In this document: positions 9,346-38,823 of the stretch, piece by piece
Layout: every line of letters starts with the position of its first letter
Position numbering within the stretch: the first letter of the stretch is position 1
Notes under the pieces: model-generated
Told to the model about the DNA's origin: nothing
What the model saw: only the letters and a program-made list of their open reading frames with translations
The model's database searches: none
Origin: Octopus vulgaris
Taxonomy: Eukaryota
Direction of reading: 5' to 3'
DNA: 64,000 nt
Assembly: GCA_951406725.2 (NCBI GenBank)
Contig: OX597822.1
Coordinates: forward strand, 42,594,001 to 42,658,000
Program-made: the position numbers and the translations under genes

Positions 9346-9383
9346 TAATAATAATAATAATAATAGTAAAAGTATTTACTTAC

Positions 9384-11689: not shown

Positions 11690-12085
11690 GCGTCTTCTAC
11701 GTGGCTCCACCACTGGCATCTTTTACGTGGCTCCACCACCGGTGCCTTTTACATGGCCCCACCACCAACGCCTTTTATATGGCCCTACCACTGACGCCTT
11801 TTATATGGCCCTACCACTGACACCTTTTATATGGCCCTACCACCGGTGCCTTTCACATGGCCCCCACCTCTGGCACCTTTTACATGGAACCACCACCGGC
11901 GCATTTTACGTGGCTACACCACCGGCACCTTTTACATGGATCCGCCATCGGCACCTTTTACGTGGTTCCACCATCGGTGCCTTTTACGTGATATCACTAC
12001 TGGTGCTTTTTTTTTTTACACGGCACCAGCACTAGTGCTTTTTACGTGGCACCATCACTAGTGCTTTCTTTTTTACATGGCACCA
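11690..12085. repeat. ~22-bp minisatellite (CCACCGGCACCTTTTACGTGG-type) expanded inside a SINE/LINE-tail family
   Basis: Many tandem degenerate units; the same motif appears in fewer copies at 8470-8670 and 19990-20185. Confidence 0.85.
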
Positions 12086-12779
12086 TCTTGTAATAAAACA
12101 AAATAGTCGCAACATGGTTGGAAACCTTACATATATATATATAATCCGCCTCATTGTTTTTATCTCTGCTTTTCCACGCATGCATGGGTCAGAAAGGTCT
12201 TTTCTAACACAGTGTCTTGCCATTTATTACATTCCTTTGTCATCTCCTTGGCAAAGTTCAACATTCTGAGATCAGCTTCTACAATTCTGCCCATGTCTTC
12301 CTTTGCCATAGCTTCTTTTTACCCATCTATTATTATCCATCATACATGTCCATATCAGATCAATCAAACACACCATATCCAGTTCCTCTCATACACAGTT
12401 TATCTATCAGTTAATCTCTACCATGTTGTCCATGCACACCAAACATTACACATCCAGTGAAAGATGCTGGTTTTGTTCTCTCTCTGTCTGTCAATCCTTA
12501 CAAACAAACAAAAACACAGACTGCTAGGATTTTCAAAGTGAAAAGGAAAGTAATGTACGTCTTTCAAATCCAGTGCATTAGCAGTACAGTAAAAATATGT
12601 AAAACATTCCAAAACGCACTCCATCTGAGATTCTTGAAATGAATATGGGCACACACTTGGTTGTATACAACTACAAAGACACATGTGGAAAGTAATGACA
12701 CACACATATATACATATGCACAACACATAAGTACTATAGAGTCATAATTGCACAGAACACAAGCACAGGTGCATACACC

Positions 12780-13105
12780 TAAACATATATACACAATACA
12801 TACATACATGCATCTATACATACAAAACACACACATAAACACAAAGATACACACAACACATACACACACACACAGAACACACACATGCACATGACACACA
12901 CAACACATACACACACAGCAAACACATACACACAACAAACACACACACATACACAACATACATACATACATTCATACACAACACATACATACACAACACA
13001 TACATACACAACAAACACACAAACAAACACACACAACACCAAAGTACTAAAGAATCCTGTTCCTACAGAAGTACACACACACACACACACACACAGACAC
13101 ACACT
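12780..13105. repeat. Cryptic (CA)n/(CATA)n microsatellite
   Basis: Low-complexity AC-rich tract; source of several spurious ORFs. Confidence 0.9.
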
Positions 13106-13809
13106 AACCCAGCCACATTTTTACAAATGCCAGGAAATATCTCAACTCAAAAATGTCCAGTCACTTTGCTAGGGATTGGCTTGAGCTCCATGAAGAAGAA
13201 CTCAGATAAATCTCAAGGCAAACACACATACATACATACACGAGCCTCCATCCAGTTTCGGTCTCTAAAATCCTAGTGACAATGTAGTGGTCAATGTCAG
13301 GCAATGATAAAAGACAGTTGTCCAAGATGTGACACAGTGAGATCAAACCAGGGACCATGTGGCAGTGGAACTCATTTCTCAACAACTCAACCATACTTGC
13401 ACATATGTATTCTACAACAACACACATGTGCATAGATTCAATCAGTGCTTGTTAAATACAGAGAGAAACGTGTGTCGAATAACATGTGTATGTATACTAA
13501 TGTGTATATACGCATTCACACTTCCAAGGATACCATTATACATGCACACATGCAAGTGCATCATGCGTTCACACATACAAAAGTACATGCAAATATAAAG
13601 ATTCAACACAAACATCAGTATACATATACACGTGTTTGTGTATATACGTGTGCATATATATATATACACACGAGAGGTATTGGTATCCAGAAGACCCAAG
13701 GTGGCAGGTAAGGGTATGTAAGTGCTATAGAAAGACCATAGTTAAACTTTCGGTTCAATAATAATACAAGTGAGGAGTCTAATGTGGGTCTTGTATGAGC
13801 ATGCATATG

Positions 13810-14935
13810 TTAAAATGAGACAACAAAATCAAGGCTGTGTGGAATTTATAGGACATTTATAAAGCAGAAGTTAGTCTTAGATCTGTTTCTGGGATATTAG
13901 GGATATCCCTTCATCACAGACGATGTGCGATGGTTAAATAGAGGGAAATATTAGAGTTCAATATAAGGAGTGGTTTTGGGAAAGGATGGAAATAAGAAGT
14001 AGAAAGGGAAATAGGAGAATGAATGTAGAAATAAAAATGTATAAAGATGTTATTGTTGCAGTTCCATTATCCAAGGAAAGCAGTTGGTAGAGGTGGAAGA
14101 AATGCTTCCTATCCATGGTATGTAAATTCCAATGGGAGTTCATATTTTGTCATCACAAATGGAAAGTGTGGAGACATAGATTCCATGTGCTGTTCATTCA
14201 AAGGGGTCCACATTTTCCATTTGTGATAACAAAATATGAACTCCCACTGGAATTTATATACCACGGACAAGAAGCATTTATACCCATTCTACACACCACT
14301 TTACTTTTTATTTCTACATTCATTCTCCTATTTCCCTATGCACTTCTTACTCTCACTCTTTACTCTTTTACTTGTTTCAGTCATTTGACTGCGGCCATGC
14401 TGGAGCACCGCCTTTAGTTGAGCAACTCAACCCCGGGAATTATTCTTTGTAAGCCCAGTACTTATTCTATCTGTCTCTTTTGCCGAACCGCTAAGTAACG
14501 GGGACATAAACACACTCGCATCGGTTGTCAAGCAATGCTAGGGGGACAAACACAGACACACAAACCCACACACACATATACATATATATACGACGGGCTT
14601 CTTTCAGTTTCCGTCTACCAAATTCACTCACAAGGCTTTGGTCGGCCCGAGGCTATAGTAGAAGACACTTGCCCAAGGTACCACGCAGTGGGACTGAACC
14701 CGGAACCATGTGGTTGGTAAACAAGCTACTTACCACACAGCTACTCCTGCGCCTAAATTTCCTTCCTTTTCCAAAATAACTCCTCATATCGAACTCTAAT
14801 AATTCCCTCTATCTCACATTGCCTCTAATGAAGAGATATCCCTAATATCTCATGAACAGCTATAAGACTAACTTTCTCTTTATAAATGTCCTGAAAATTC
14901 CACACAGCCTTGGCTTTACTGTCTCATTTTATTTA
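13810..14935. mobile_element. Large fold-back element (loop ~14173-14206), a degenerate hammerhead in each arm, right arm split by a SINE
   Basis: 13810-14172 pairs with 14207-14349 plus 14755-14935. Hammerhead remnants at 13874-13921 (-) and 14821-14868 (+). Confidence 0.75.
14350..14754 (-). mobile_element. Young full-length SINE family C nested in the fold-back arm
   Basis: CpG-rich, complete tRNA-like head AGGCGCAGGAGTAGCTGTGTGGTAAGTAGC on minus. The interrupted arm resumes on both sides. Confidence 0.88.
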
Positions 14936-15027
14936 ACACACACACATGTATATAAAATGTACTGATCCACAATAGAAAATTCAACAAAAAAAGTACTCCA
15001 TCTGGTGAGAGATAAACATTATTTATT

Positions 15028-15285
15028 TAAAGGTCGCAATACATGTATTAAAGCGCTACTAATAGTTTCCTATGTTGAGAAATACTCAAACACATTGTTC
15101 AGATGTAATCCACATATCATAACGAACTAGAGAAATTGAATAAATTGAATAATTTTTACGTGTTTCTTCTATTATTCAATTTCTTTAGTTCGTTATGATA
15201 TGTGGTCTGCGCCAGAAGAACATGTTTGAGTTTTCTCAGCATATGAAACTATTAATAGCACTTTAATACATGTATTGTGACCTTC
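15028..15285. mobile_element. Fold-back element with hammerhead remnants in both arms
   Basis: Arms ~15028-15143 / 15171-15284. Minus: CTGAACA...GAAAC-tatta-GTA-gcgc. Plus: gcgc-CAGAAGA...GAAAC-tatta-ATA-gcac. Confidence 0.7.
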
Positions 15286-16704
15286 AATTTTATATATATA
15301 TATATATATGCACACACACACACATCAAAGCACATGTTGGAAATATTGATATAAATACAACTACAACAACAAGCTAAAACATATACACACATGCAAAAAA
15401 AAAAAATATATGCTCATACACACACCTAAGTAAGAATAAATGTGAATAGACACACACACACGAGCATAAGAAAGAAAATATAAATATCCAGACATACACA
15501 GCTAAAAAGCAATATATACATTAAAAATAATAAACATATATATATATATGGTAAATATAAATAATGGCATTGACAGAAAAACACATAAAATATATATACA
15601 TAGATCCCTCCATCCATATGCTTGCTTCTGTGTGTGTAAGAGAGATGTTTAACACTCATATGAATGTACAAGTTAACACATGTTTATGTGTGCTTATATA
15701 AGATAGAGAGATAGATATACCTTTTAGTATTAATGCATATATCTTTGTATGAAGATTCACAAATTCGCCTGAAGATAAGTACTATGTCAAAGCACATATG
15801 GAGATTGGGTGACTGCATGTATATACGAATAAAATTTAAACGAAAACGAGCAAAGAGAAGCGTGGCCAGTAGCATGTATTTGAACAATATAGACAAATAC
15901 AGATATGTCAAATACCATACAACATAAATTCCTAATACATTGAAGTTATCTTGATCGCCTGAGGATGTATCATAATTACAAAACGGCAATTAAGACCAAC
16001 TCTATTTGAGACGGGAAAATAATCCCAGGATTCAAAAAGTCTCCAATGTTGACATGCCACTAGGGAAAGAGGTCAGGCTTATTGTCTGGAGATAAGAAGA
16101 CAGCCATGGATATGTGTTTCTGACTCAATTGCCATCATTGTCAAGATAATTGTGCGACTTTATTTGCAGTAGTCAAGAGACTTAAACTTTTACCAAAACG
16201 AGAACAACACATTCCTGGCTAAGGCAGTTTGCATAATTCAAACAAATTGAGCTAAGAGAAACAATTCAAAGCAACTTGTGGTGTATATTTGAACAAACAA
16301 ATACAGGTATATCAAATATCATACAACATAAATACATCTGGCCTAGTTGGGAGTACAGCAACTCTTTGGTGCTGGTTCCACAATAAAAAATACACTGTTG
16401 GTGTTAGGAAGGACATCCAGGCATAGAAATCATAAACCAACTAAAACAGAGGCATTCAAGCAAAATAGGGTATTCCAACTTATCTAGGAGGGATGTAACA
16501 CTAGTTAGAAAGAAAGAAATGGCTTAGATCTTGATGAACCTCAACAACCCATGCCAGCATGGACAATGGACATGAAATCATTTTCACTACTACACACCAT
16601 TACGAATCTTACACACACCAAATTAGTCCTCTATACACACGGCCCATAATTCACTATCATACACCATTGCACATCTTAACACCATGTGTAAATTAAAAGT
16701 AAAA

Positions 16705-17045
16705 AAAGGACCCCTTTAGTAATGAATGACCATGGGATAGCACCTAGAAAGTTCCCCTCCGAGGTACAAATCTGGGCAAGGTTGTTTTATGGAAGGCCAG
16801 CTGTCGCCCACGCATACCAGTCTCTCTTCTCCATGCCATCAATGTTATCCAAGGGAAAGGCAAAGGCTGATACAGCTTGGCACCAGAGACGTCACAACTC
16901 ATTTCTACAGCTGAGTTAACTGGAACAGTGTGAAATAAAGGGTCTTGCTCAAGAATACAACACATGGTCGAGTCTGGGAATCAAACTTGCTACCTTGTGA
17001 TTATGAACCTCACATACTAGCCATTCAGCCATGCATCTTCACAAG
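16705..17045 (-). mobile_element. SINE with tRNA-like head on minus; second copy 18105-18440
   Basis: Shared body GCACCTAGAAAG...GGAAGRCCAGC...TTTCTACAGCTGAGTTAACTGGA..AATAAAG in both copies. Confidence 0.75.
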
Positions 17046-20000
17046 GATTATACACTATGTATAATCTTCTATAAACACTGCCCATCCTTTGCTACCTTAC
17101 ATTTTACACACTGTCATACATCTTACAAACACCACATATGGCCCTCTATAAATACTGTCCATAATTTGCAAACATAGCCTCTCACATACACACACACTAC
17201 ATATAGTCCCCTGCAGTCACTGTCCACGTTTCACTACCATACACCGACACACATCTTACACTCACTACATATATTTCCTCTATACACAATGTCCATGTTT
17301 CACTACCATACACACACTACATATGTCTCTACACTGACTACCATTATGTATTACTACTAAACACAATAACACACTATTTTCACCATATTTGCTGTTAGAT
17401 AAGTATCCAGAGTCTTGCCTACAACACTTTCCCACCCTAGTGATAGAACAGAAATTGAGCACACTTTAGCCAATGGACTGAAACTTGCCCCACTTGACCA
17501 TTATAATATGGTGATGTCCAATATCTTTAGACACATGGTTCGCTTTCAAAGTATTGATCGCCTACCTTTATATGAGAAGCTGGTTCTGTTACAGCTGGCA
17601 TGGAAGTGCAAGGGAGAAAGCTATACCAATATCATCATTCTTGTGGGTAAATGGCTTTGAAGAAACTTTGGAGCAAACACTTACAAGAGGTGTCAAACTA
17701 CATACCAATCATAGCACATAAAAAGCACCTGTGCTGGTGCCATGTACAAGCACCTGTGCTTTTTATGTGGCACATTCTTTAGCACTCCTACACAATAATA
17801 TTTAGACAATGAGTTAAGGCTTATAGTGAAAACTGTCACTGGTAAGGATACACAGCTCTATCACTGGAATAACTGTCACAACATGTACACCCCCACAGTT
17901 GAGAGAATGTCTCCAATTTGTAGATGTTCATCATGTCTCTATCATTCCTCCCCCTTTTGCTAGCATATCATACATACACAAATTGTATAGCATACACATT
18001 GATACAAATGTATACATGACATGTTACACATGCATTACATATGTGCACTTAGTACTGTCACTCCATATTTTAGCATCTCACACACAAACACTTTTATAGC
18101 TAGGAGACCTCTTTGGTTATGAATAACCATGAGATTGCACCTAGAAAGTAACCCTCCGAGGCACAAGTTCGAGCAAGGTTGTTTTATGGAAGACCAGCAG
18201 TTGCCTATGCATACCGGCCTCCTCTCTCTATGCCACCAGTGTTATCCAAGGGAAAGACAAAGGCCGATACAGCTTGGCACCAGTGATGTCGCAACTCATT
18301 TCTACAGCTGAGTTAACTGGAGCAATGTGAAATAAAGTGTCTTGCTCAAGAACACAACATGCAGCCCGGTCCGAGAATCGAACTCACAACCTCATGATCA
18401 TAAGCTCAACACTAACCCCTGAGCCATGCGCCTTTACAGCTAGCATGTCAACACACGCATACCTTTATAGCTAACATGTCAACAAACACACACGTACCTT
18501 TATAGTTGGTTCCCACCTCTCTCTAACATACACAAACTATTGACTGGAGATGCAACTGGTGTGGCTACCATAGGTTAAACTCATCTGAATGTAGCCAGGG
18601 GCAAAGTGCTAGTGTTAATAGGGGCAATGGATTTAAAGGTTTCCTTTTCAAAACCAGTACAGTCTATATCTGGTTGACTTGTGGTTGGGATAGAAAATAT
18701 TTGCCCAAGATGCAGCACAGTGAGACAACCTAGAGCCATGCAATGTTAAAGTAAACTTTAATTACACAGCCATGTCTGTATCTAACGAACACTTCAAATG
18801 GTTACAGTTTCATTAACCAGTGAAATATACTGGATATGTTGGTGTAATATTGATCCATGAAAAATAATCTGGAACCTTGTAAAAAAATAAATAAAGTAAA
18901 AAAAAATCTCACAGAAAATACTGATTTCAAATTTTGGCCCAAGCCCAGCAATTTTTTTATGGGGGGAGGTATGTTGATAACATTGACCCCAGTGTCCAAC
19001 CGGTACTTATTTTATTGACTCCGAAAGGATGAAAGGTGAAGCAGACCTTGGTGGAATCTGAACTCAGAATGTGAAGACAGATGAAATACCTCAAACGGTT
19101 TTGCCTGGCATGCTAATGATTCTGCCAGCTTGCCATTTTACTTGCAGAAGATATTAAAAATTACAGTTATGTTTTATTAAGTACATCATCACGGAGAGTT
19201 GATTCTCATAGAAATGCATGATTACATACATGCACCCACTTACACATATAGGCACATGTGCACACACACATACACACACAATTTGCACCTCCACACAAAT
19301 TTAAAGAAATCATAAAACAGAAGAGAGCTAGATGCTTCCTGCTTTGCAGAGTACTATACATTTTTACTGGAGGCTGATTATTATTACATGTGTCCATTAC
19401 AATTTAAAATGATGTCAATACACAGCTCATCAGGCAATTTGGTGCAAATTTTTAAGTTTCTGTGATTAAACATTTTTAATGATATAATTTATAAAAAAAG
19501 GAAGAAAAAATTGTGGGAAATTTGACTGGCGACTGTTGGTGCTGCCACCTACAGTTGCTTTTGTAGTGAGAGAGTTTACTAAGAAATAGAAGGGTGGCTG
19601 AAGTTTCCCTTTAAGGGGAGAGAACTGCTCAGGATGTATAATTTTTTATTTTAGCATTATTATTATCATTACAAGGTCTTTTTCTTTGTCTTTCACTCCT
19701 ATGTTACAAGAATGTCTGTAGTCATGAATTAAATACGACTGTGTGCATCTGCTTAACTGCTCTAATGGTAATTAACATGTAAACCTTTAAAAAAGAATTT
19801 AGAAGTGGCCTTGTGTAAAGAAACCAATCATCATCATCGTTTAATGTCCGTTTTCCGCACTAGCATGGGTTGGACGTTTCGACTGGGGTCCGGAAAGCCA
19901 GGAGGCTGCACCAGGCTCCAGTCTGATCTGGCAATATTTCTACAGCTGGATGCCCTTCCTAACGCCAACCACTCTGTGAGTGTAATGGGTGCTTTTTACG

Positions 20001-21558
20001 TGCCAGGGGAGTCTGGCAGCGGCCACGATCGGTTGGTGCTTTTAATGTGCCACCAGCATGGAAGCCAGTCAAGGCGACACTGGCATCGGCCACGCTCGGA
20101 TGGTGCTTTTTACGTGCCACCGGCACAGAAGCCAGTCGAGGCGGCGCTGGCATCGGCCACGTTCGGATGGTGCTTTTTATGTGCAGAGTATGACAGAAAT
20201 CATATGTATTTTGTACATATTACAGTTTAAAAATCAGGTCATTCCACAGCATAGACTATGAATACTGTGGCAGGCCACACAAAGTAGTGTTTATATTTCA
20301 TATATGCTATTATCATATGAAGGCAAGAAGAGTTATTATTAAAGGAGGAGGTTGCTAATTTTATTGTAATTTATAAGACATTAAAAAACAAATTTTTTAA
20401 AAATCAAGAAAAATATATATCATTGATATGTCAAGATTTCATTGATAGAGCGTCATTATGATATCTAAGAAGGTATTTTTACTTGTGTGGGCAGGAAGAA
20501 ATTAATTAATAATGATTATTCATTTGGTGTTAGGAAGGGCATCCAGCCATTGAAACCATACCAAAGAAGATATTGGGGGTTAGCATAGTCCTCAGGTTCA
20601 TCAGCTCCTGTCGAACCATTCAGCCTATGCCAGCATGGGAAACAGATGTTCAACTATGATGTCTTATGTTTTAAAATCAATGTTATTTCTGGCATGTATA
20701 AAAAACAGAAACATTTTACTATGTCTAAACAATGCCAACTATGAAGGCGTGTGGGTTAGTGGTTAGGGTGTCAGCATCATGATCATAAGATTGTGGTTTC
20801 AATTCCTGGACCGGGCAACGCGTTGTGTTCTTGAGCAAAACACTTCATTTCACGTTGCTCCAGTCCACTCACCTGGCAAAAATGAGTAACACTGCGATGG
20901 ACTGGCGTCCAGTCCAGCTGGGGAACACATACACCATAGAAACCGGGAAACTGGGCCAATGAGCCCGGCTAGGCTTTAAAAGGGCGCAGTGGAGGCGCAA
21001 TGGCCCAGGGGATTCCCGGTCGGAGGATCGTGGTTTCGATTCCCAGACAAGGCGTTGTGTGTGTTTATTGAGCGAAAACACCTAAAAGCTCCTTGAGGCT
21101 CCGGCAGGGGGTGGTGGCGACTCTTGTTGTACTCTTTCGCCACAACTTCCTCTCACTCTCTCTTCCTGTTTCTTGAGAAACGCTGTGATGGACTGGCGTC
21201 CCGTCCAGCTGGGAGGAACACATATGCTACAGAAACCAGGAAACCAGGCCCATGAGTCTGGCTAGGCTTGAAAAGGGTGACTTTTTTGTTTTTTTTGCCC
21301 ACATAAACACTTAAATATAATGACGTCTCACTCATGGTTCCCAAAATATAATACATATTTAAATTTTTATTTAAAATTTGGGTTATTTAACTTCAGGCTG
21401 GAGCCTAGTGCAGCCTTCTAGCTTGCCAGCCCTCCGTCAAACAGTCCAACCCATGCCAGCATGGGAAGCAGACATTAAATGATGATGATGATTTAGATCA
21501 TAATGAAGTTAGAGTCAACTCCCTTTAACAGTGATCTTGTGTCCTCAATTCAGAAATA

Positions 21559-22038
21559 CAGTATTCCCTTGACTATCGCAGGCGTTACGTTCCAAAATCC
21601 TCTGCCATAGGTGAAAATCCACAAAGTAGAAACAGTACTGTATTGTATATTTAAAAAAAATAATTTTTATATATTCATTTTATTATAAATGTAAAACAAT
21701 ACCACATACTTGCCTTCTAAATTTCATTTGCCACACAGTGTGCGGGATTCTTTGTTTACTTATCTCTGGTACACTACGTATTTTCTTTTAATATATTTTA
21801 ATTAATGTGTTACACAGTGCAGTACTGTATTGTATTTCTATTTATTAATTTTTAGGTGTGAAAATGCTTATTTTATCATAGAAATAGCTAAAATCTAAAG
21901 TAATATAAATATCTATCGGTTGTAGAAATCCACAATATTCTGAGGAGTCCGCAATATAAATTTACATATGTTAGCCAGAAAAATCTGCAATGTACTGAGG
22001 GCGTGATTGGTGAACCACAATATGGTGAGTGATTACTG
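21559..22038. mobile_element. Non-autonomous pogo/Tigger-like DNA transposon
   Basis: TA|CAGTA.TC...GATTACTG|TA: terminal inverted repeats with a TA target-site duplication; no ORF. Confidence 0.7.
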
Positions 22039-23517
22039 TATAAAATATGTTCAATTTCCTTCCTTTCTAAAAAGGTTTCTTTGTATAAAATTACAATGAC
22101 ATTCTTTCTTAGATTAACATATTAATTACACATCAAACATATGCACCCATCCATGATTCCTGATTAACAGCAACCATAAAAAAAAAAAACTCAACTCAAC
22201 TCAACTAAAAAAGTAATTTTATCAGAATATAATATACAACGGTACAAAATTTACCTGATGAGCCTTGTGTAGGCAAAACTTCAAGTTATAATATGAATAG
22301 ATAATATCTGGCTTTTAATAAATAAAAAAATGCACACCAATATGTTCTTCAGAAGCTAATGATTCACTGGTACTACTCAGAGTTTCTTGCAGTGTGCGAT
22401 CTTATAGGTGACAAAGGATTATACAGAGCTTTTTGCTGCCTGACAGAATGCACATAATAAGCAACTCTGAATAGTAACTAAATAAATCAACATAAAACTG
22501 AATAAAAATATACTCTACTAAATGCATTGAGTACTCTTTTCTCTGTTTGTACATCCAAATAGATTTTTGAAAGTTTGCCTGAAAAATTGCTGAGTATCAA
22601 ACTGGAGTAGTGGACAGATCCTAAAAATTACACACACACACATGCACATACAGGTACATACACACATGTACACACAGGTACATACTCATGTATAAAGGTG
22701 TTTAAATATAAATATGTGTATGTTCAGTTACAAATGTTTGAACATGTATGCATGTGTGTGTGTGTGCAGACTAAAGTGGAATGTAAAGTATGATGATGAT
22801 GATGATGATGATATATACCAGTGATATCTGCAGAATAGAGAGGTCATGAGGGAGTCGGGGGGCGAAATATTAATAAATGATATAAATTGTAGATAATTTA
22901 TATAAACAACAATGAAGATAAGATAAGCAGCAACAACAACAACAACAGCAGCATCAGTAATAACAGCAGCAACAGCAACAACAACAACAACAAGCAAAAG
23001 CAGTGACAACGCCGAAAGCAGAAGCAACAACAATAACAACAACAACACGAAGATACATTGCCAACAAGAACGAAAGTAATGACACCAATGATGACAACGT
23101 CAATGAGAGACGACAACAACATCGAAAACAAAAAAAAAAAAGCAACATCGACAAGAACAACAACAGCAGCAAGGTAGATGGTGCCACCAGCAGCAGCAGC
23201 AGACGACAATAACAAGAAAATGGAGTTGCAGTGAGAGTAAGTTAGAAAGCAGAAGCTTGTAGCGTGAGTGGAGGAAGAGGTATAGGCCGTAAGAGGTGTT
23301 GGAAGAGGGAGAGCTGTCGGGAGTTGTTATTATTATTATTATTATTATCATTATTATTATTATAATTATTTCTTTTTTTTTTTTTTTTTGGTTGGTGAAG
23401 GGATCGATCGATTGATTGACCGACTGACTGGCTGGCTGGCTAACCGACTGACCGACCAATCGATCGATCAACTGCCTGACTGCGGCTCCCTGGACATCGC
23501 TCTTCGGCAGCACTCAC

Positions 23518-23610
23518 CTGCAATATAAAATGTATGTTCTCGATCCGGGTGGGTTGAGTAGGGTCAAAATGATAACTGTCAGTTTTAAGATGCCAAATCG
23601 TCCATGTGAT
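23518..23610 (-). CDS. Candidate alternative 93-nt in-frame exon of the ANKRD28-like gene (ITWTIWHLKTDSYHFDPTQPTRIENIHFILQ)
   Basis: Acceptor ttaacttgtctttag and donor CAG|gtgagt; 31 stop-free codons, phase 0->0 like the host intron. No homology recognised. Confidence 0.45.
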
Positions 23611-23887
23611 CTAAAGACAAGTTAATGGAAGATAAAAAAAATAATAATAGATGTAAAATTTTTTTTTTTTCTTCTTGATGGAAAAAAAATATTAAAATTA
23701 TGTGTGCATATATATGTATATATATATGTGTGTGTGTGTGTGTGTCTGTGGACATATACATACACACACATGCTATGTGAAAAGATATGTGTATATATAT
23801 ATATACACATATGTAAGCAGATATATATACATATATATATACACACACACATATGAACAGATATATATGTATGTGTGTGTACATACA

Positions 23888-23929
<42 letters not shown>

Positions 23930-24869
23930 CATATGTGAACATATATAATTGTTTTATATATATATATATACATATATATATATACACACACACATATATA
24001 CCATGTTAATAGATATATTTACGGTGTCTACAAACAGACTTACTCTGAGTTACATAAGTGTTATATTCCTGGAAATCTTGCCATAATATGGAACCTATTT
24101 TCCAATTGGCTTCCACACTATACAACCTAGGTACCAATGGATAAACTAGCTCCACAATACAAAATATTTCACATTAAAGCAAGATTTCCAGGAACACAAT
24201 GCTTCTGTAATGCAGGAGAGCTGTATTTGTGCATATATATAATATATATATATATATATACATACACACGCACCATGTAAACTGAATTAGGAAATGTAAA
24301 TATAATAGTCACTAATATTAGTAGGACCTTTGATGGTAGTAGTTTGGTGTGCAGCGACAGTAATTAGATTGGAAGAAAAAATACAATAAAAGAAGACCAA
24401 ATAAAAAGAAAAACCCAGAAGATCTGTAATGATGATCTGACACAAGATGGAGTGGAGATGGGTTGTGGCACTTAGACTTTAGATGGAAGTAGATTTCTTC
24501 CATCTTCACCTAAAGAATAAAGACGCCTACACCAACGAAAGAATCCTTAAAATAGACAATGGTTCCATAATTTTCCACACTTATTCCTCTTAATGTTTCC
24601 ATTTTTTTTTACTTATATAACAAATCCACAATAACATAAGGGTGGCAGAGATGGTGGTGGTAGTCTGCATTAGTTAGAGGTAATACAATAAAGTTTAAAA
24701 AAACAAAGAAAGGGTGTAAAAAAGAGACTCCTTTCTCAAATTCCCAAGACTCCTCTGAAATATGCTGTATTTCAGATGGTTTTGCTGAAGGAGGAAATAT
24801 TTAATATTTTGGAGCAGGTTTCCTCATTAGAGAAGAAGCTTTTAAAATAATAATAATAGCAAATTTATT

Positions 24870-25135
24870 GCATACTGTGCTCAGGTGCACTACAGCTCAT
24901 CAGGAAAAGTATCCCAAACTGCAGGAACAGTATATAGAACAATGTACAGAAAGTGAATAGCGAATGAGTTATTTAAAAAAAGAAAAAGAAAAAAAGGTGG
25001 GAGGACATCAGGTGTGCTGTTGGTGGAAGCCAGGAAGTCTTGGAAGATGTAGTGTCCTGACAGCAGCTAACAACTGATGTGGGTAGTTTATTCCATGCTT
25101 CAGCAACTCTGAGCATGAGAAAAATGTTTCCTAAA
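24870..25135 (-). mobile_element. CR1/L2-like LINE 3' end
   Basis: Translation FLMLRVAEAWNKLPTSVVSC fits the CR1 C-terminal motif F..RV...WN.LP..VV. Confidence 0.6.
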
Positions 25136-26683
25136 GCCAAGCGTGCTGTATTATTTTTTGATTTTCTAAGCAAGGAGTCAATGCTATCTCTTCTGAATAA
25201 AATAGAATATCTGTAGCAACATTCCCAAGATAAACTGGTGTAAAGCTGATATAATATTCCCCTGATGATTTGGTGCAACCAAGATACATTGGGGAATGTT
25301 CCATCAACTTGACTTTTACCCAAAGCATTATAGGCATTCCTGTTTTTGTCACCTGAAGAATTGCACATAGTAAGAAACTTTAAATAATAACAGTGAATCA
25401 TTAGCTTCTAAGGAATATGCGTGTATGTATTTTTTTTTATTCATTAAAAGCTCAAAATTGTCTATTCATTGAAGTTTTGCTGACACATGGCTCATCAGGT
25501 AATGTGAGGTAAAGTCTATGATCAATAACAGGTGGTCTATCCGAAGCAGCGTTCTCCAGATAATCTCTTGCTACTTGGATAGATAAGAAAGCAGTCCATT
25601 TAAAGTAATCATCCCCAGATGATCCAATGCTATCTGGATAGATAAGATGGCAGTCCATCAGCGGTGACATCCCCCACCCTGATGATCAAGTGGTAATTGT
25701 TCCACCAGCTGTGGGACATTAATACACAAATGATTGCAGGCCTGTTGGTGGCAGTCCAGTATCAACCCTACTTCCACAAACACATCATCATCACCACCTT
25801 AGCTTCTGTTTTTCTAAGTCATTTCTCTCATTCCAGATTCATCTTGTTTACCAGACCCAATACCCTCAAATGCAACTGTTTACTATTCTCACACACTACC
25901 CCATCTCCAATATTCATCTGCTGCAGCTATTCAGCTCACAGCAATCATATAATTAATTAATTGATGATGAAATTAGGATGGTAGAGCTAATCCTTTGCCC
26001 AGTTTAATATCACCACTTGGAATATGAATGCCTTTAACAAAGTAGCATGGGGTCAGCTTATGATGAGGAGAGGAGGTGTTGGAAGAGAATAGAATGAGGA
26101 AGAAGGAAGGAGAGAATGAGGAGATGGGGATCTGACTACTACCACCATTGGACGGTTTAAAATCTACAGGATAGTGAGAAAAAAAAAGGTAGAATGGCTA
26201 CTAAAATAGCATACATGGCATACTGTGCAGTGTTTTGTGTGTATCTATTGTTATGGTGGGTGTAATTTAGCCCCAGGTCAACCCTGACTGAGACCTATGA
26301 TCAAAAGTGCTCCAACAGTGACTATCTCACCTTTTTGTATATCAAGGCCTACATCATCTACATAGTTCTTCCACATTTAATACAGGAGAGTGTAATTTGA
26401 GTGAAATTTACCAGCTATTTCTAGCAAGTCAAACTACCAAATAAAGAAGACCTGTCACACAGTACTCTAAATATAGTGTTGCTGTGAAAATGAGGTTAAG
26501 CGAATCATCAAAACAATACGAGTGAGGGCTAAATTATCTCAAGGGGGTATTCAGCCTCATGGATAGACACCCAAGAGGGCCTCACATATGTGATATAGAG
26601 AAGTGGAAAACTGACAGATTGAGACTTTCAGAAATATTGAAATAATAATCAATAATAACGAAAGCAGTATTAATACCAAAAGA

Positions 26684-27027
26684 TAATATTTATCACCAGT
26701 TAAAAGTGGATGTTGGGTTAGAACGCAGGATACTGTGACAGTTAATTTGAGAAAACCAGAAACTCTTGTATGGACTTTCGGTGCATACAGGCACACTTGT
26801 TTATACTGCTAGTGGAAGATAATCAAGTGCTATCACAAAGAAGGCTCAAATTATGTGATTTGGTAGTCCTGGCAGGAGTGATAGTGGCTGATTATTTCCC
26901 ACTGGCGGTATAAACAAGGGTGTATGTACCAAAAATCCATATTGAGAAGTTCTGATTTGCTCATGGTACCTATTGCAGGATTCTGTATGTTAATATGACA
27001 TCCACTTTTAAGTGGTGACAAATATTA
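26684..27027. repeat. Fold-back repeat (~140-bp arms)
   Basis: TAATATTTATCACCAGTTAAAAGTGGATGT / ACATCCACTTTTAAGTGGTGACAAATATTA; inner arms CTTGTTTATAC / GTATAAACAAG. Confidence 0.75.
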
Positions 27028-29458
27028 CTTATTGAATTAATGTCCATAAAGAGTGGATCTGGTAGATGGAAGAGTGGATCTTGTGAGTGGATCTGGTAGA
27101 TGGAAGCTGAAAGAAGTCTGTCACAAGTGTGTGTGTTTATCCCCCATCACTGCTTGACAACTGGTATTGGTGTGTTTATGTTCCTGTAACTTAGCGATTT
27201 GGCCAAAGAGAACAATAGAATAAGCACTAGGCTTACAAAATAAGTCCTGGAGTCAATTTGTTCGACTAAAAAACAAAAACCCTTCAAGGTGGTGCTCTAG
27301 CATAGCTGCAGTCATATGACTGAAACAAGTAAAAGAATAAAAGAATATTCTACACAAGGCAGAATGTTTATGAAGAGAGTATGTATGCTATCAGGTTATG
27401 CTGGGTCTGAAGAGAAGACAGGGACACAATGATGGCTGCACGATTTCAAAGGTCACTTCACAATCAAACATTTTCTTAAACTTTCAGATTCAATAATTTT
27501 ATCAATCAACATTACACCCATGTTCAGGATATAATTTACTATTTTGCAAAAGTTATCATTGAAATGTTCAATGTCTGATTCCACTGAATGGCACATTGGG
27601 CAAAGTATCTTCTACCATAGCTTTGGATTGCCCAATGCCTTCTTAGTAGAATTTGGCAGAGAGAAATTGTGTGGAAGATCATCATTGATTGCTTGGTTAA
27701 TATCCCTACCATGGGTCAAATGCAATAATTTAAACCAGGTCCCCTTGGATTATGTTCCTCAAGAAGGGGATCCTCTAAAAACAGTGAAAGGCACAGCACT
27801 TCTTACAGGGACTAGACTATCTTTTAGCTTTTGCTTGTTTCAGTCAGTAGACTGTGGTCATGCTGGGGCACCACCGTGAATCTTTAGTCAAATAAAATGA
27901 CCCCAGTGTGTATTTTATAAGTCTGGTACTTATTCTATCAGTGTCTTTTGCCAAACTGCTAAGTTACAGGGATGTAAACACACCAACACCGGTTATCAAG
28001 CAGTGGTGGGGGACAAACACAGACACAAAGGCACACACACATATCTATCTACATACACACACAGAGAAACGATGGGCTTCTTTCAGTTTCCGTCTTCCAA
28101 ATCCAATCACAAGACTTTGGTTAGCCTAAGGCTATAGAAAACATTTGCCCAGAGTGCCATGCAGTGGGACTGAACTAAGAACTATGTAGTTGGGAAGAAA
28201 ACTTCTTATTACACAGCCACACCAGTATACACACACACACACAATACAAAAAAACAAAAACAACTCATCACAATCGTTCCTGATGACAGGCTTCTCATTA
28301 ACTTGCCAGCAACACCTAATTATGATTATCTTATAACAGACCACTGTCATAGGCTGTATAGGGAGGTGCACAATTAAGCTCAATCCAGGTTTGCTGAATT
28401 GTCACCACACTTCATAGATACAACAGTATGTTGTAAAGGTGTTCCCCTACCCAAACCACTGAATACACAACTCAGATATAATGGTGGGCCTAATGTAAAC
28501 CTAAGGGACTCACTACAGTTTAGTTTCTAGTCATGTTATTTTGGATTTTAAGCTTATCACAGTAATATCTTGTATGTAATACATACACACATGATATGCA
28601 TACATAACACTAAGAATGTAAACATACACATGACAAGCTTATTCTGTGCACATACATATCAATCGCTCATAAGGACACTGTATTTCCACATTCAACCCTA
28701 ATATACTGCTAAGTGTATTAAAAGCTTATGAGTCAATACTGTGTCCCACCTGTGTTAGCAGTGCAATCCAGTCATTTTTTCAAGTCATCTCTATCAGATT
28801 TTCCAAAGAAATTAGAGCCAGTACTGAATGTTATGTTTCATATACAAATATGTTTATGCAAGTAATATGACAGAAAAATAGTTAATAGGTGTATATGCTG
28901 GTTCTAATTTCTATAGAAAATCTGTAGAGGTGACTTTAAGGTAGCAGAGTCTATTTAAAGTAATGATCCCCAGATGACCTGACGCTATCTAGATAGATAA
29001 GATGGCAGTCCATCAGTGGTGACATCCTCCACCCTGATGATCTAGTGGTAATTGTTCCAACAGCTGGGGGACATTGAGTAGCCTACATTAATACACAAAT
29101 GATTGCAGGCCTGTTGGTGGCAGTCCAACATAGAAAAAATGATATACATATATTTTTAAATGATATACATAGCCACTACACACATTTTTTCTCTCCTTGT
29201 TTTTTTCTGTCTCCCTTTCTGTAGAAGAGCGTAGGCTCAAAACGTAAAAAACTTTTTCTATTCCTGAGCGTTATACTAATACATTTGTTTGTTTTGTACA
29301 CCACTTGTCTTCGTCTTTTGTTTTTTCGTAAACTCTCCCTATATATATATATATATATATATATATCCATTTGTATCAGGTCATTCCAAAAGTTATGTCT
29401 GAATAGTGTTCTATGTCCTCCTTAAGACAGTGATAAACCTCAATCTATAATGATTAGG

Positions 29459-29726
29459 AGTAAAGATTATTTGCCAATATAACATGGCAGTCTTGGTTTA
29501 GGACGAATGTCGCTGTAATTTAGCCCCAGGAGACATTGTCTCCAGCTGGCTATATGACACGATGTGTCCTTATATTTTTGAACAAGGGAATCTAGCACCC
29601 CCATCAAAAATATAAGGACACATCATGTTGTATGACCAGCTGGAGACGATGTCTCCTGGGGCTAAATTACAGCAACATTAGTCCTAAACAAGGACTGCCA
29701 TGTTATGTTGGCAAACAATCTTTACT
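29459..29726. mobile_element. Hairpin MITE (~120-bp TIRs, short spacer); 5'-truncated second copy at 30877-31077
   Basis: AGTAAAGATT...AATCTTTACT ends with near-continuous complementary arms. Confidence 0.8.
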
Positions 29727-32700
29727 GTTGCTGAATATCTCTCATGAGATTTAATAGTAATTTTCTATAATGATTAGTTTAATAAATAATAGTCAATACC
29801 AGTCATGAGATGTGGGAGAGGAGACTCCAACATGGAATATGATGCATTTATGCTTATATGAGAGTTTTTCATTATTCCTGGATGTTAGTAAGACTGGAAA
29901 AAGCTTCATCATTAGTAGTATACATGCCACATCAGATATAAGAAGCATAATTAGATTTCAGTCTGTAGGGTACACACACGCGCGCACACACACACACGTA
30001 AGTGTAGTTTACGGGTTTAAAACCATTGGATAGATTTTCAATCTGATGTTTATCTTATCAATTTTTTTTGTAGAGCTGCTAAGTTCTGAGACATGAGACA
30101 TGACAAACAATAACAGATTCAAACAAACACACATACACACACGAAGGGCTATACACCATATTCTGCTCACAAGGTATTTGGTTGACTTGAGTCCACAGTA
30201 GAAGACACTGCACAAGTGGCTATGCAAGGGCATCAAACCTGGAATCGATTGGTTAATAGTTTGGTCTGGAGAGAAGAAGGAACTGTTGTTAGAATCCGCC
30301 CAGGTCCTCCAAAGACCAGTGAAATCAAAGCAGGTGGTGGTGTCCTCTTAATTCCATGTTGACAGCTGTAGTAGAAACATGGTTAGGGAAGATATTTTAG
30401 TGGGGAGGGAGGAGGTGGGGGTGAGGGGTCGAATGGATAGACTGATTGATGTAGGGGTATACAATGTAAGTAAAGAGAGTGAAAGAAATGAGTGGAGAGT
30501 AGGTGGAGGAGTAGAGGCTACTGTAGTAGCAGTAGAAATGACAAATAGGAGACAACATGCCTATGGAGACAAAAGGTTGGAGTATGTTCATGACTTCATG
30601 TCACTGAATTGTGTGGTTATTTTTTTAGTGGGTGTGATTTAGGGTATAGCAATGTGTAGCAGCAGCACTGTACTTTTTGTGGGGGCAGTACTTCAAGCAT
30701 TCCTTCGGTATTGGTTTAGAGATTGTCAATAAGAGACAAGAGCACTCACCCTCTTTTTCAGCCTAGTCTCTTATTCTATATCATGAGGGAAGGTTGTGTA
30801 GGTGACTGACATCATGTACCAATATTCACCATAGTGAATCTCATTTGAACTTTAAATAGTGGGAGAGAGAGAGAGATCGTCTCCAGCTGGCTATACAACA
30901 CGATCTGTGTCCTTATATTTTCGAACAAGGGAGTCTAGCATCCCTACTCAGCTCAAAATTATAAGGACACAGATCGTGTCATATAGCCAGCTGGAGATGA
31001 TGTCTCCTGGGGCTAAATTACAGCAACATTCATCCTAAACCAGGACTGCCATGTTATATTGCCAAACAATCTTTACTACAAAGTACTGTTGCTGAATATC
31101 TCACGTTGTGAGATCTAAAAATAGTAATTTTCTAAATTCACTCCAGTACTTATTTTTTAAAAATCTGGTACTTTATCAATCTGTTTTGCTGAACTGCCAA
31201 GTTATGGAGACATAAAAAAACCAATACATACACACAAACTTTCATACAATTTCTGTCTACCAAAGTCACTCACAAGGCAGCTTGAAACTATTGTAGAAGA
31301 CACTTGTCCAAAGCGCTGTGCAGTGGAGCCGAACTCAAAACTGTATGACTGCAAAGCACACCTCTTAACTGTGCAGTGATGTCTGCACCCAACTCTGAGT
31401 AACAAGAGAGAAGATGAGAAACAAAACGAAACCCTGACAATCCTAGTTAACTGTTCAGAAGAACATCAAAACAGGAATACTAAATTACTGGATAAAATTC
31501 ATTAATGAACATTAGGGTAACAGTGGCAGAGGAAGACTGGACATTTACTGACCACTCCAGGTAAAAAGACCGCTGGGAAAGAAGGGGGAAGAGTGGGGAG
31601 TGAGAAAAAGAGATTTTGGTGAATTCTCTGAATAATCAAGAACTTGATGAGTAATTATGGAGATTTGTTCAGTTTGCACATATATGTATATACACCTAGA
31701 TATACATACATGTGTGTGCATGTGTGAGAGAGAAGGCATGTGGCCTAGTGGTTAGTGTATTGCACTCATATTCACAAGACTGTAGCTTCAATTCTCAGAC
31801 CAGGTGATGCATTGTTTCCTTGAGCAGAACACTTCATTTCACATTGCTCCAGTCTACTCGGCCGTAAATGAGTAACCCTGCAATGGACTGTGATGTTATT
31901 CAGGGGGAATGTTCGCCTGTCCACCTGGCCAGTGGTGTGGTAGCATTTAAAAGTTACAATAATGCAAGGAAGCACATTGTGACTAGTGATGAATAACATC
32001 TGAGAGTTTGATTGTTACAGTGTGATATATATATATACACACACATACATACATACACACACACATGCATGCACACAGAAATACATATACACACATAAAT
32101 GTGTACATCTATCTCTGTACATATAGATATGACTGTAACAGTCAAAGGTCAATACTTAAGGATTTTTTTTAGACAAGTTCGTACAAGGAGGGGTAACACA
32201 TGTAATTTCTGTAAGCAACCCACCCCTGCCCCATTCTCCATCTTCCACCACAAATAACATTGATGCACAACTTTGATATCTGGGGTGGGAAATAATTCTG
32301 AGGAAGGATTTTTTTTTTGAGTTCTAGGATTCATAAGGCCAGGGCTTGACCTGGTTTCCTTGGTATATAAGCAACTGGGTTTACAGCATACTCCTCACCC
32401 TGGATGGTATGCCAGTCCACTGCAGAGTTAACTTCCCAGCCATTGCAAGAACTCATTTACAGCGGAGTGGACTAGAACAATATTAAAGTGTGTTGCTCAA
32501 GAATGTAACATACTACCTGGTCTGGGAATCAAATCTACATTCTTATGATTACAAGTACAACACCCCAACCCAGTGATTCCCAAAGTGGGGCCTATGCCCC
32601 ACCAGTTGGGCCTATGCCCCACCAGTTGGGCCTGGGATCCAATTTTTTGCTTTTTTTTTAAGTGGGACCTGGAATTGTGAAAATCTTTTTTACATAGCAA

Positions 32701-35239
32701 ACATACTATACCTATATATTTCTTTATTGCCCACAAGGGGCTAAACATAGAGAGGACAAACAAGGACAGACAAAGGGATTAAGTTGATTACATCGACCCC
32801 AGTGCGAAACTGGTACTTTTATTTATCGACCCCGAAAAGATGAAAGGCAAAAATACCTATACTGAGCCTAGCCAAACCAATCCCTCCAACCAAGCATACA
32901 GTGTGAAGACTGTTTGCTACAGTATAGCACTATTCTAATGCTTTAGTATGGATATTTCTTTAAAGAAAGTGTATAATTATGAAATATTGAAAATAAAGTT
33001 TGTTTTTTTACTCCAACCAACGGTGGGCCATACATTTTTCTGGAAAGTTATGGTGGTCCTGGGGGTAAACAGATTGGGAAGCACTGCCCTAATTGCTAGC
33101 TTAGATACCCACACAGAGGAAAGATTAGATCCAAGTTATTTAGTGATGGATCTGAGAAAGAGAGGAAGAAAGACAAGTGTCTTTTGGGTGGGAGTTTGGG
33201 CTATATAGCTAGGTAGATGAGGAGAGGCTGCTGGAGTAGAAGTAGAGAGTAGGGAGAGAGGGACAGAGAGAGACAGAGAGAAAATGCAGTAGATCTGTAG
33301 AGCCAATGCATTAGTGATGGAACCATTACTGGTTTTACTGTGGATTGGATCTAGGGTGTGTGTGCGTGTGAGTGTGTGTGCGTGCGTGCATGCACACATG
33401 TGTACACATGCAACAACTGTAGCAATACTGTGCCATAAATAAGGGTGGTTCTGTAATGTGGGTGTAAGATATTTGTGTGTAATAGCAGCAGCACTGCCCC
33501 ATAGATCAAGCATGTCAAACCGCAGAGTCTCCATGGGCTGCATTGCCAACATATATGTTGGGGCTGCAGCTTTTTAAACGCAAATTTACAACAAAGATTT
33601 CTGTTGTATCAATTCTTTGTTATTAAGTAAAAGTCTTTTAAAGCCTTTTATTTGCTCATCAATAATCCAATTTTTATTCATTAAAATTATTTTCATTAAA
33701 AATTTTGGGGGATCTCCATTTTTAAACCAATGTGTCACTAGCAGTCCACACATGTTTGACATGCCTGCCATAAATGAGAGAGAAAGAGAGAGAGAGGGAG
33801 GGAGGAAGGGTGAGAGAAAGAGTGTGTGTGTGTGCGTGCACATTTTTTTTTGCGTATGTATAACAGCCATGCTATCCCTTAGGTGTGGATCCTAACTTTG
33901 CTTAAGTTTAAATCAAGGCTGTAGTATTCGTTGTGATGCAGATTGTATAAACAATATAGTGAGTTTAGTTGTGTATCGTCTACACAAAGAGACTGTTTCT
34001 TTCATGTATAGAGACTGTGTCTTTGTATTGAGGAAAAGCACAAGGTTTTCATGCCACCAGAGGAGATTTTCATAGACTCTGCTGATGGAGTCAGTGCTAT
34101 GTTTGATGTGAAGTTTTTCACTTATCCATGGATGACACTTATGTGCAGGATGTTAAGCAAAATGTAGTCTTGCCTGTACAAGTGTGGGATAAGAAATAGC
34201 AGTAAATATATTATTAATGAACAGAAGAGCACGGAAGACACAACGTTGTGTTGCACTGGAATTGATAGAAAGTGAAATTAGCTGTTGATAGTATTTTTCC
34301 AGACTGTATATACACTTGTTTATATTGACAATATATTTATATATAGAGATGCTGTATTTTGAATGATTTGCTTTGCTGTTGTCATCAGGTGCATACAGAT
34401 TCAAACCATATTGATAACAGGAACCTTAAGAATGAAGGATAAGAATATAATCTATCAGTACATGTATCAGTGGCCTAGAGCAGTGCTAGTCAAAGTGGTG
34501 GTCCGTGGGCCGGTGCTGGTCTATGGCCAGTTTCCAGAAAAGAAACATTATAAAAATGATTATAAAATGCTAATGTGATATTGTATTATTTGTTTACAAA
34601 ATAAACAGAAGATAAAAAAAGTCAACTTTTATTATATTCATTATATAGTTTCTGGTATAAATTAATATTACTAAGAAATATTACTGGTCCCTGGCACATT
34701 GGAAAAAAAAAACTGCTGGTATGCCACTTCAGACAGTTTGAGAAGCACTGGCCTAGAGGATAGGGACATAATTACTCTTAGTTTTAAAGAAAGGTTCTAA
34801 GTTCAAACATAGCTTGAGCTCATGTTGATATCCAAGAATAAGACACCTGATGACAACCAGGCATCAAACCATTTAAAATGTAATGTAAAAATATGTAAAT
34901 ATATTTGGATAAATAGGTGAAAACTAGATATGCTCAGTATAGAAAACATGTAATAAGGAATTGAACAGAAATTCCGAATTCTTCATCCAGGACTATCTAT
35001 CTATCTATCTATATATGCATACATCATCATCATTTAATGTCCCCCTTCCATGCCGTCATGGGTTGGACTGTACATGTATATATGTGTCAAGCCTAAATGT
35101 GTCTATGTGCATTACTATCTCCATATCAGCTCACTTGGTTTTCTTTTATTTATATGTAAATATATTTATATATGTAAATACATTAAAAAATGCGTGTAAA
35201 TATATTGTATATATAAACTGGAAAAATGAAGGTAATGAT

Positions 35240-35640: not shown

Positions 35641-35819
35641 TGGAATTTGATACAGTGTACTAAATGCTAACTCTGGAAGTATAAGTTATGTAGTGGGATC
35701 AGACAGAAGCTGGCTGAGAACCAGAAAAGGTAGACTTTATATGGGGCAAACAAGAAAGAGTAGTTAGCTGTAAGAGTACACATGAACTACATTTGAACTA
35801 CGTATCACCTTCTGAAAAG

Positions 35820-36380: not shown

Positions 36381-36569
36381 TGTATGTTTAATATAAATAA
36401 ATAACAATAATGAATGTTTCATGTAATATATTTAAAACAATAAATCATTGAGTTTAATTACCCAGAGGCACCATCTGCATGAAAGCAATAGTTATGTTAA
36501 TAGTGTTAACATATTTAATGTAGTGAACATTAAAATTACTTTATCAAGTACAGTTTAATGTAGGTTTCA

Positions 36570-38810: not shown

Positions 38811-38823
38811 GTAATAATAATAA

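What the first reader, a model, noticed from the sequence alone, without database searches (positions are those of the whole stretch)
23512..23625. In-frame 93-nt cassette exon that ends in a recursive-splicing-like AG|GT site
Seen on minus: ttccattaacttgtctttag|ATCACATGG...ATACATTTTATATTGCAG|gtgagtg. The 31 codons are stop-free in phase 0, matching the host intron, and would insert ITWTIWHLKTDSYHFDPTQPTRIENIHFILQ between two ankyrin blocks. The last bases (TTTTATATTGCAG) also look like a 3' splice site placed directly against a strong 5' site. Established: such juxtaposed AG|GT ratchet points subdivide long introns in Drosophila and vertebrates. Inference: either a lineage-specific alternative exon, or a recursive site splitting the intron into ~30.7 and ~14.1 kb, or both. 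An alternative first exon is also possible.
Basis: partly seen in the sequence, partly recalled or inferred. Interest (0 to 1): 0.75.

Follow-up and report, generated by a model that had tools for sequence, protein, structure and literature searches.

The report
Optional exon in octopus PP6 scaffold
This is a real 93-base exon that RNA reads show spliced into the message of a phosphatase-scaffold gene (ANKRD28/44/52 family) of what is probably an octopus, likely as an optional 31-amino-acid insert at a predicted flexible hinge, while the proposed 'recursive splicing' signal at its end looks like an ordinary splice donor.

Summary
The exon is real; the recursive site is not supported. Window 23610-23518 (minus) is a single-copy, 93-nt, phase-0 exon in a 44.7-kb intron of an ANKRD28/44/52-family gene (PP6 ankyrin subunit). 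Raw RNA reads join it to the upstream exon (3 reads) and the downstream exon (4 reads); a depth reconstruction puts 2 reads across both junctions, which excludes a first exon. Contigs of two other runs end exactly where inclusion and skipping must fork, so it is alternative (indirect). 14 RNA-like runs of 5 organism codes hold its words. Its closing CAG|GTGAGT is the normal donor consensus. As an acceptor it scores below all 11 real acceptors, and 852 of 1291 intronic YAGs score as well. No upstream-exon-to-23517 junction was listed in 4 runs (low power). RNA that keeps the downstream intron carries the whole exon. The same junction holds a 9-residue insert in vertebrate ANKRD28, just before the only low-confidence linker in the main ankyrin stack of a predicted model. 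Verdict: an ordinary, lineage-restricted cassette exon with a mildly interesting parallel.

The parts
23518..23610 (-). Cassette exon X, 93 nt, phase 0/0, 31 codons
   Evidence: spliced reads; single copy
23611..23672 (-). Acceptor region of X: T-rich tract, TTAAC branch-point-like motif 15 nt upstream, 58-nt AG-free zone, TAG
   Evidence: use shown by F-to-X reads; branch point not tested
23512..23520 (-).
   Evidence: used as donor to exon G in 4 reads of X22; use as acceptor not seen
54185..54296 (-). Upstream exon F (112 nt), ends in the outer helix of an ankyrin repeat
   Evidence: loose ends map to 54186-54196 and onward
9384..9449 (-). Downstream exon G (66 nt)
   Evidence: loose end equals its first 30 nt; contigs of X12 and X9 end 1 letter past its start
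9450..54184 (-). Host intron, 44,735 nt, phase 0; position shared with limpet and probably vertebrate homologs
23440..23517 (-). Read-through of the donor: 25 more codons, then TAG; present in RNA that keeps the downstream intron
23373..23389 (-). A17 run 128 nt downstream of X, the longest sense-strand A run of the host intron; likely oligo-dT mis-priming site
   Evidence: A runs of 12 or more: 23670 and 23389 only; link to the X3 contig is inferred
1889..63287 (-). Part of the host gene in the window: 11 constitutive exons of an ANKRD28/44/52-family gene

Best explanation
A 93-nt exon is spliced between exons F and G of the ANKRD28/44/52-family gene, and it is likely an ordinary alternative cassette exon that adds 31 residues at a predicted flexible hinge of this PP6 ankyrin scaffold. 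Steps: (1) shown - the F donor joins the X acceptor, and the X donor CAG|GTGAGT joins G; (2) shown indirectly - G has a second upstream partner, most simply F, so skipping coexists; (3) inferred - the choice is normal exon definition and splice-site competition, the 30.6-kb upstream intron is often removed first, and the F-X-intron RNA is the intermediate, captured by priming at the A17 run; (4) inferred - the insert lands in the last turn of an ankyrin outer helix just before a disordered linker, so it would lengthen or re-angle the solenoid or add a binding surface without breaking it; (5) untested - tissue or neural regulation, and any effect on PP6 assembly or substrates. The AG|GT is the donor consensus, not a ratchet point.
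For:: X22 raw reads have 3 loose ends matching F and 4 matching G; the X3 contig joins F to X; a 10-read reconstruction reproduces every covered depth bin and places 2 reads across both junctions; the X12 contig (1373 nt, depth 47.3) and the X9 contig (299 nt, depth 7.2) both end 1 letter beyond G's start, where F versus X must fork (X versus unspliced would fork at 5 letters); extra depth over G's first bases (43-49 and about 10) matches branch contigs; 14 RNA-like runs of 5 organism codes hold 0.44-0.61 of 18 words (exon alone predicts about 0.37); frame open with and without X; fish ANKRD44 aligns across F|G without a gap; the skip linker is 23 residues against 25-26 in 24 of 56 confidently placed homologs; vertebrate ANKRD28-type proteins carry a 9-residue insert at the same junction (32 of 49) or lack it (17 of 49); in the model of carp ANKRD28 (P0164) the junction lies in helix 523-532, and 541-552 is the only pLDDT<50 segment between residues 151 and 990.
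Against: Read numbers are tiny: 10 reads in X22 (probably 3-4 fragments), 2 in X23, from about 6% of each run. No F-to-G junction letters were displayed, because SINE-like reads swamped; skipping rests on contig ends. The raw reads are of organism D, not necessarily the window's species. X3 has the F-X-intron contig at depth 21.8 and no depth on G or G2, which also fits a truncated terminal-exon isoform. The peptide was not found in any protein and no cephalopod full-length protein was among the 120 listed, so translation is not shown. The structure is of a fish homolog, not of this protein.
Confidence: 0.83

Rival explanations
1. X is mainly a composite terminal exon: in some tissues its donor is ignored, 25 more codons and a stop follow, and the RNA is polyadenylated in the intron, giving a scaffold that lacks the C-terminal half of its ankyrin repeats.
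For:: the X3 contig F-X-intron (depth 21.8) has no listed X-to-G branch; 5 X22 reads run through the donor. X3 has no depth on G or G2. X1-X4 hold more words than the exon alone.
Against: The 5 X22 reads share one start (probably one molecule). The X3 contig is only 376 nt and ends at or just past the genomic A17 run. The nearest AATAAA lies 1.67 kb and the nearest ATTAAA 1.2 kb downstream. All this fits 3'-tag libraries primed on pre-mRNA (mechanism from general knowledge; one search gave listings only). X-to-G splicing is shown in X22.
Confidence: 0.08
2. Dual use: besides acting as the donor of X, the AG|GT at 23518/23517 acts as a ratchet point (F spliced to 23517, donor regenerated, second step to G), or the X end acts as a regenerated acceptor after X-G ligation. 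Either route would produce the skipped mRNA in two steps.
For: Tandem CAG|GTGAGT in a 44.7-kb intron, one of only 2 YAG|GTRAGT on the sense strand against 0 on the antisense. A possible downstream donor TCG|GTCAGT lies 65 nt on, out of frame, like a cryptic RS-exon. Even very poor regenerated acceptors can work in flies when the EJC is absent (PMC8184009, passages).
Against: Tract score -6.1 bits against 0.4-6.8 for 11 real acceptors; 852 of 1291 intronic YAGs score as well; AG-free zone 19 nt against 23 to >198. No loose end at 23517 or 23453 in X22, X23, X1, X3; the X3 contig, which samples intron-retaining RNA just downstream, passes the site unbroken and comes through the X acceptor. One of the 2 sense motifs is simply the donor of X. 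G|GTVAG occurs within any 90 nt of this intron about 5 times in 100.
Confidence: 0.06
3. X is a low-level, non-functional exonisation (splicing noise) that happens to keep the frame.
For: The peptide has no relatives; few raw reads.
Against: Held by 14 RNA-like runs of 5 organism codes in assembled contigs, which drop rare variants; no letter differences listed in X22, X23, X1 or X3 (low depth); at least 4 of 14 reads at position 9417 of G come from the included form; single copy, no repeat origin seen.
Confidence: 0.03

Closest known systems
Conventional frame-preserving alternative cassette exons
   Same: GT-AG flanks, length a multiple of 3, symmetrical phase, both junctions in RNA, signs of skipping, insertion at a predicted flexible linker.
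   Different: Nothing in kind; this particular exon was not found in print or in the protein collection.
Vertebrate ANKRD28 9-residue insert (IASETPLDV-type) at the same junction
   Same: Same position relative to the ankyrin helix; in frame; present in some database isoforms and absent in others (32 and 17 of 49); absent from the ANKRD44 and ANKRD52 entries seen; begins with a hydrophobic residue, as X does.
   Different: 9 against 31 residues and no visible sequence likeness beyond the first residue. All 17 forms without the insert are UniRef entries and may be gene-model misses, and no vertebrate DNA was examined, so that it is a 27-nt alternative exon is inferred.
Drosophila intronic ratchet points ('zero-nucleotide' recursive sites with a downstream cryptic RS-exon)
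   Same: AG|GT juxtaposition in a long intron (44.7 kb); a weaker donor-like site 65 nt downstream.
   Different: Here the AG|GT closes an expressed, in-frame exon and is used as a donor; the acceptor tract is weak; no recursive junction seen.
Expressed RS-exons (Ubx m1/m2, mammalian RS-exons)
   Same: Short in-frame alternative exon within a long intron.
   Different: They regenerate a donor at the exon's 5' end (PMC8605326, introduction read); X begins with ATC, so F joined to X makes no GT.

Membership tests
Alternative cassette exon | Canonical acceptor and donor, frame and phase kept | tested here: met
   TAG| ... CAG|GTGAGT, 93 nt, both readings open
Alternative cassette exon | Both inclusion junctions present in RNA | tested here: met
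   3 reads F-X and 4 reads X-G in X22; 2 reads across both by reconstruction
Alternative cassette exon | A skipped form exists | tested here: met
   indirect: contigs of X12 and X9 end exactly at the predicted fork; F-G junction letters not displayed
Alternative cassette exon | Regulated (tissue- or stage-dependent) inclusion | not testable with these tools
   runs are coded without tissue; both lay calls used
Alternative cassette exon | Conservation beyond close relatives (squid, cuttlefish) | tested here: inconclusive
   5 organism codes hold it in RNA-like runs and 6 in large DNA-like runs (8 codes in all), all near-identical at the 31-mer level; no cephalopod protein retrieved
Drosophila-type intronic ratchet point | Tandem AG|GT in a long intron | tested here: met
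Drosophila-type intronic ratchet point | Acceptor half looks like a real 3' splice site | tested here: not met
   -6.1 bits against 0.4-6.8 (home-made model trained on the same 11 acceptors); 852 of 1291 YAGs as good; AG-free zone 19 nt
Drosophila-type intronic ratchet point | Junction reads from the upstream exon into the site | tested here: inconclusive
   none listed in 4 runs, but only 12 raw reads and 2 contigs; the tool lists loose ends from 3 reads and contigs drop rare forms
Drosophila-type intronic ratchet point | Saw-tooth nascent coverage | not testable with these tools
   no nascent or total-RNA run offered; the intron exceeds the 20-kb lay limit
Drosophila-type intronic ratchet point | Short cryptic exon with its own donor downstream | tested here: inconclusive
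   TCG|GTCAGT at 23452 (65 nt); chance about 0.05 per 90 nt; no read uses it
Expressed RS-exon (Ubx / mammalian type) | Donor regenerated at the 5' end of the exon | tested here: not met
   exon starts ATCACA; definition from PMC8605326
Alternative first exon | No upstream exon joined | tested here: not met
   F-X junction in X22 reads and in the X3 contig
ANKRD28/44/52 (PP6 ankyrin regulatory subunits), host gene | Best similarity to named family members, collinear across exons | tested here: met
   48% identity over 300 columns to Astyanax ANKRD44; most of the 120 listed hits are named ANKRD28/44/52; exon F has one match in G000
ANKRD28/44/52 (PP6 ankyrin regulatory subunits), host gene | Binds PP6c and PP6R in a heterotrimer | not tested
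   role taken from database names and an abstract start in the listing (PMC11462953)

The most novel reading that the evidence does not exclude
The end of this conserved coding exon doubles as a recursive splice site, so a mollusc makes its exon-skipped mRNA by two-step splicing through the exon's own donor: the first recursive splicing in a cephalopod, with the expressed exon upstream of the ratchet point instead of downstream, tuning the same PP6-scaffold hinge that vertebrate ANKRD28 tunes with its own small insert.
Probability: 0.06. Interest if true: 0.72.

Novelty: new member of a known kind. Interest (0 to 1): 0.3.

Why it matters
As it stands it is an annotation-level gain: a probable extra isoform of what appears to be the single PP6 ankyrin subunit of this genome. 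The one point of wider interest is the parallel with vertebrates: an unrelated insert sits at the same junction of ANKRD28, next to the scaffold's one predicted flexible linker. If both prove to be regulated exons, two lineages independently use the same ancient intron to tune PP6, which gives a concrete test (isoform-specific PP6 partners or substrates). The case also shows that an AG|GT at the end of an exon should not be read as a recursive site.

Tried and rejected
No listed holder is on record as RNA (14 are guessed RNA), so only the laid runs count as evidence. Protein search with the 56-residue natural frame that starts with X: 8 candidates, none scored (weak). Search with exon F: 3 short hits, the only named one a limpet fragment. 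The 1.84-billion representative search was swamped by general ankyrin proteins; 3 of the 150 listed were used as family members. The ESM Atlas gave only generic ankyrin clusters. No solved ANKRD28/44/52 structure passed E 1e-100. tblastn with 4 homologs found no ankyrin-like duplicate exon in the host intron above 24 bits, so no mutually exclusive partner was seen. The hairpin just downstream of the donor is not significant (z -1.7 and -1.4); all 61 Rfam matches in 22500-24500 are below their gathering scores and mostly on TA/CA repeats. No TGCATG within 290 nt upstream or 318 nt downstream. One search had one exon boundary misplaced; its acceptor scores were discarded and redone. One search was swamped by repeat-derived reads, so no direct inclusion level could be read; at least 4 of 14 reads (29%, 95% interval 8-58% if the reads were independent, which they are not) is a floor for X22 only. 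In one search, 66 of 122 rows were dropped because the flanks were not placed with confidence. Two look-ups of earlier scan notes returned nothing. Papers: octopus + recursive splicing 0; cephalopod + recursive splicing 1, in its reference list only; ANKRD28 + microexon 0; none of the 30 listed of 34 papers contains 'octopus'. bioRxiv 10.64898/2026.09.05.749416 includes an octopus and has no 'ankrd' in its main text, but its supplementary exon tables could not be seen and may list this exon.

Full report
Observation. On the minus strand 23610-23518 is flanked by a T-rich tract ending in TAG and by CAG|GTGAGT, is 93 nt long and reads as 31 codons without a stop. It lies in the phase-0 intron between exon F (54296-54185) and exon G (9449-9384), 44,735 nt in all, split 30,574 + 93 + 14,068. 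Eleven constitutive exons were mapped in the window; the spliced frame is open without the exon (381 codons) and with it (412). The 251 bases around the exon match once in G000, a 2.8-Gb genome, and the peptide has one real match, itself. The organism is probably an octopus; this is an inference from genome size and the limpet as closest named short hit (76%), not a tool result.

Host gene. The skipped reading aligns with Astyanax ANKRD44 at 48% over 300 columns with no gap at F|G, and a profile of the window's exons retrieves mostly proteins named ANKRD28, ANKRD44 or ANKRD52, the ankyrin subunits of protein phosphatase 6. Exon F matches once in G000 (a lower bound). The limpet fragment and two unnamed proteins run into unrelated sequence right after the F-equivalent, so the intron position is old.

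The exon is used. Fourteen RNA-like runs of 5 organism codes hold 0.44-0.61 of the 18 sampled words of 23480-23680, close to the share expected for the exon alone (0.37), and six large runs hold 0.72-0.94. Laying four runs on 23400-23720: in X22 (raw reads, about 6% of the run, 10 laid) 3 reads leave the exon's 5' end into exon F and 4 leave its 3' end into exon G; the loose letters map to 54186-54196 and equal the first 30 nt of G. A set of 10 read positions reproduces every covered depth bin and the median loose length; in it 2 reads span F, the whole exon and G. X23 has 2 partly fitting reads that end at the acceptor, too few for letters to be printed. The X3 contig joins F to the exon. An alternative first exon is thus excluded. 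These are few molecules, probably 3-4 fragments in X22.

It is probably alternative. Laying on 8100-9600 was swamped by repeat reads, but two contigs are informative: in X12 (1373 nt, depth 47.3) and X9 (299 nt, depth 7.2) the contig through G ends exactly one letter past G's start. F and X share one terminal letter, X and the unspliced intron share five, so a fork at one letter requires an upstream partner other than X or the intron, most simply F. Extra depth over G's first bases (43-49 and about 10) is what branch contigs would add. In X22, 14 reads cover position 9417 and at least 4 come from the included form. The F-G junction itself was not displayed, so skipping is shown only indirectly.

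The recursive reading. Ratchet points are tandem acceptor-donor sites followed by a short cryptic exon, and expressed RS-exons carry the regenerated donor at their 5' end (PMC8605326, abstract and introduction read); evidence normally comes from junction reads into the site or a saw-tooth, and poly(A) data have limited power (PMC6110457, passages). Here the AG|GT closes the exon, where AG|GURAGU is the ordinary donor motif (PMC8184009, passages); 3 of 11 constitutive exons in the window also end in AG. With a simple tract model trained on the 11 real acceptors, those score 0.4-6.8 bits, the true acceptor of X 1.2, and the proposed recursive acceptor -6.1; 852 of 1291 YAGs of the intron score at least as well, and its AG-free zone is 19 nt against 23 to over 198. 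No loose end was listed at 23517 in the four runs, and all RNA seen over the first bases of the downstream intron comes through the exon: 5 same-start reads in X22, the X3 contig at depth 21.8, and an unspliced 160-nt contig in X1. For the other side: YAG|GTRAGT occurs twice on the sense strand of the intron and never on the antisense, a donor-like TCG|GTCAGT lies 65 nt downstream (chance about 0.05), poor regenerated acceptors can work in flies, and the read depth is far too low to exclude minor use. I put recursive use at about 6%.

Read-through RNA. X3 has F-X-intron RNA but no depth on G or G2. Its contig is 376 nt and ends at or just past an A17 run at 23389-23373, the longest on the sense strand of the intron; the nearest AATAAA is 1.67 kb downstream. 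The simplest reading is a 3'-biased library primed on pre-mRNA whose upstream intron is already removed (inference). A true truncated isoform (25 extra codons, stop at 23442-23440) is not excluded.

Protein context. Between the GH of the repeat in F and the next PLH the skipped form has 23 residues and the included form 54; 24 of 56 confidently placed homologs (of 122 examined) have 25-26, and 19 have 35. The 35-residue class is vertebrate ANKRD28, which has 9 extra residues at the very junction that matches F|G: 32 of 49 ANKRD28-type entries have them and 17 lack them, both kinds occurring among carp entries and within one Sinocyclocheilus-named cluster. The forms without are all UniRef entries and may be gene-model misses. 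In an AlphaFold2 model of carp ANKRD28 (mean pLDDT 85) the junction lies in helix 523-532, and 541-552 is the only segment under pLDDT 50 between residues 151 and 990. The insert therefore likely extends a flexible hinge of the solenoid. The two inserts are not visibly related, so independent gain is the simpler reading; function is untested.

Verdict. A real, single-copy, frame-preserving cassette exon conserved among close relatives, a new member of a very common class. It was not found in the literature searches (listings only unless stated) or in the protein collection, but closed supplements and genome annotations not held here may already list it. Interest 0.3.

Noticed in passing
proteins P0164, P0284 and P0180, P0285 (without); Vertebrate ANKRD28 has a 9-residue insert at the junction that matches F|G; a search for ANKRD28 + microexon found no paper. 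It may be a 27-nt exon gained independently in the same intron.
   Followed up: partly
window 20873/20872, minus: A second CAG|GTGAGT in the host intron with a better tract (0.8 bits; 131 of 1291 YAGs score as well) than the reported site. It seems to lie in an interspersed repeat (recalled resemblance, not tested); no RNA was laid on it.
   Followed up: partly
window 23402-23472, minus: Imperfect hairpin of decayed tetranucleotide repeats about 45 nt downstream of the donor; z -1.7, not significant; Rfam match far below the gathering score.
   Followed up: yes
window 23363-23517, runs X3, X22, X1: RNA reading through the exon's donor into the intron; X3 has it at depth 21.8 but no coverage of exons G and G2: internal priming at the A17 run or a truncated isoform.
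   Followed up: partly
window 8300-9330: Short interspersed repeats in the G-G2 intron attract very high RNA depth (thousands of reads in X22), i.e. these repeat families are abundant in the transcriptomes.
   Followed up: no
window 9417: All 14 X22 reads and the X9 contig carry C>T (plus strand) in exon G while X12 does not: a species difference in a constitutive exon, whereas none was listed inside exon X (low depth).
   Followed up: no
window 11678-12087 and 20013-20184: A 26-nt minisatellite (about 12 copies) and a 67-nt tandem repeat (2.6 copies) in the downstream intron.
   Followed up: no
proteins P0265 (Cotesia) and P0226; Some insect homologs have a much longer version of the same linker (70 and 37 residues; flanks placed below the confidence cut), a further sign that this spot tolerates inserts.
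   Followed up: no
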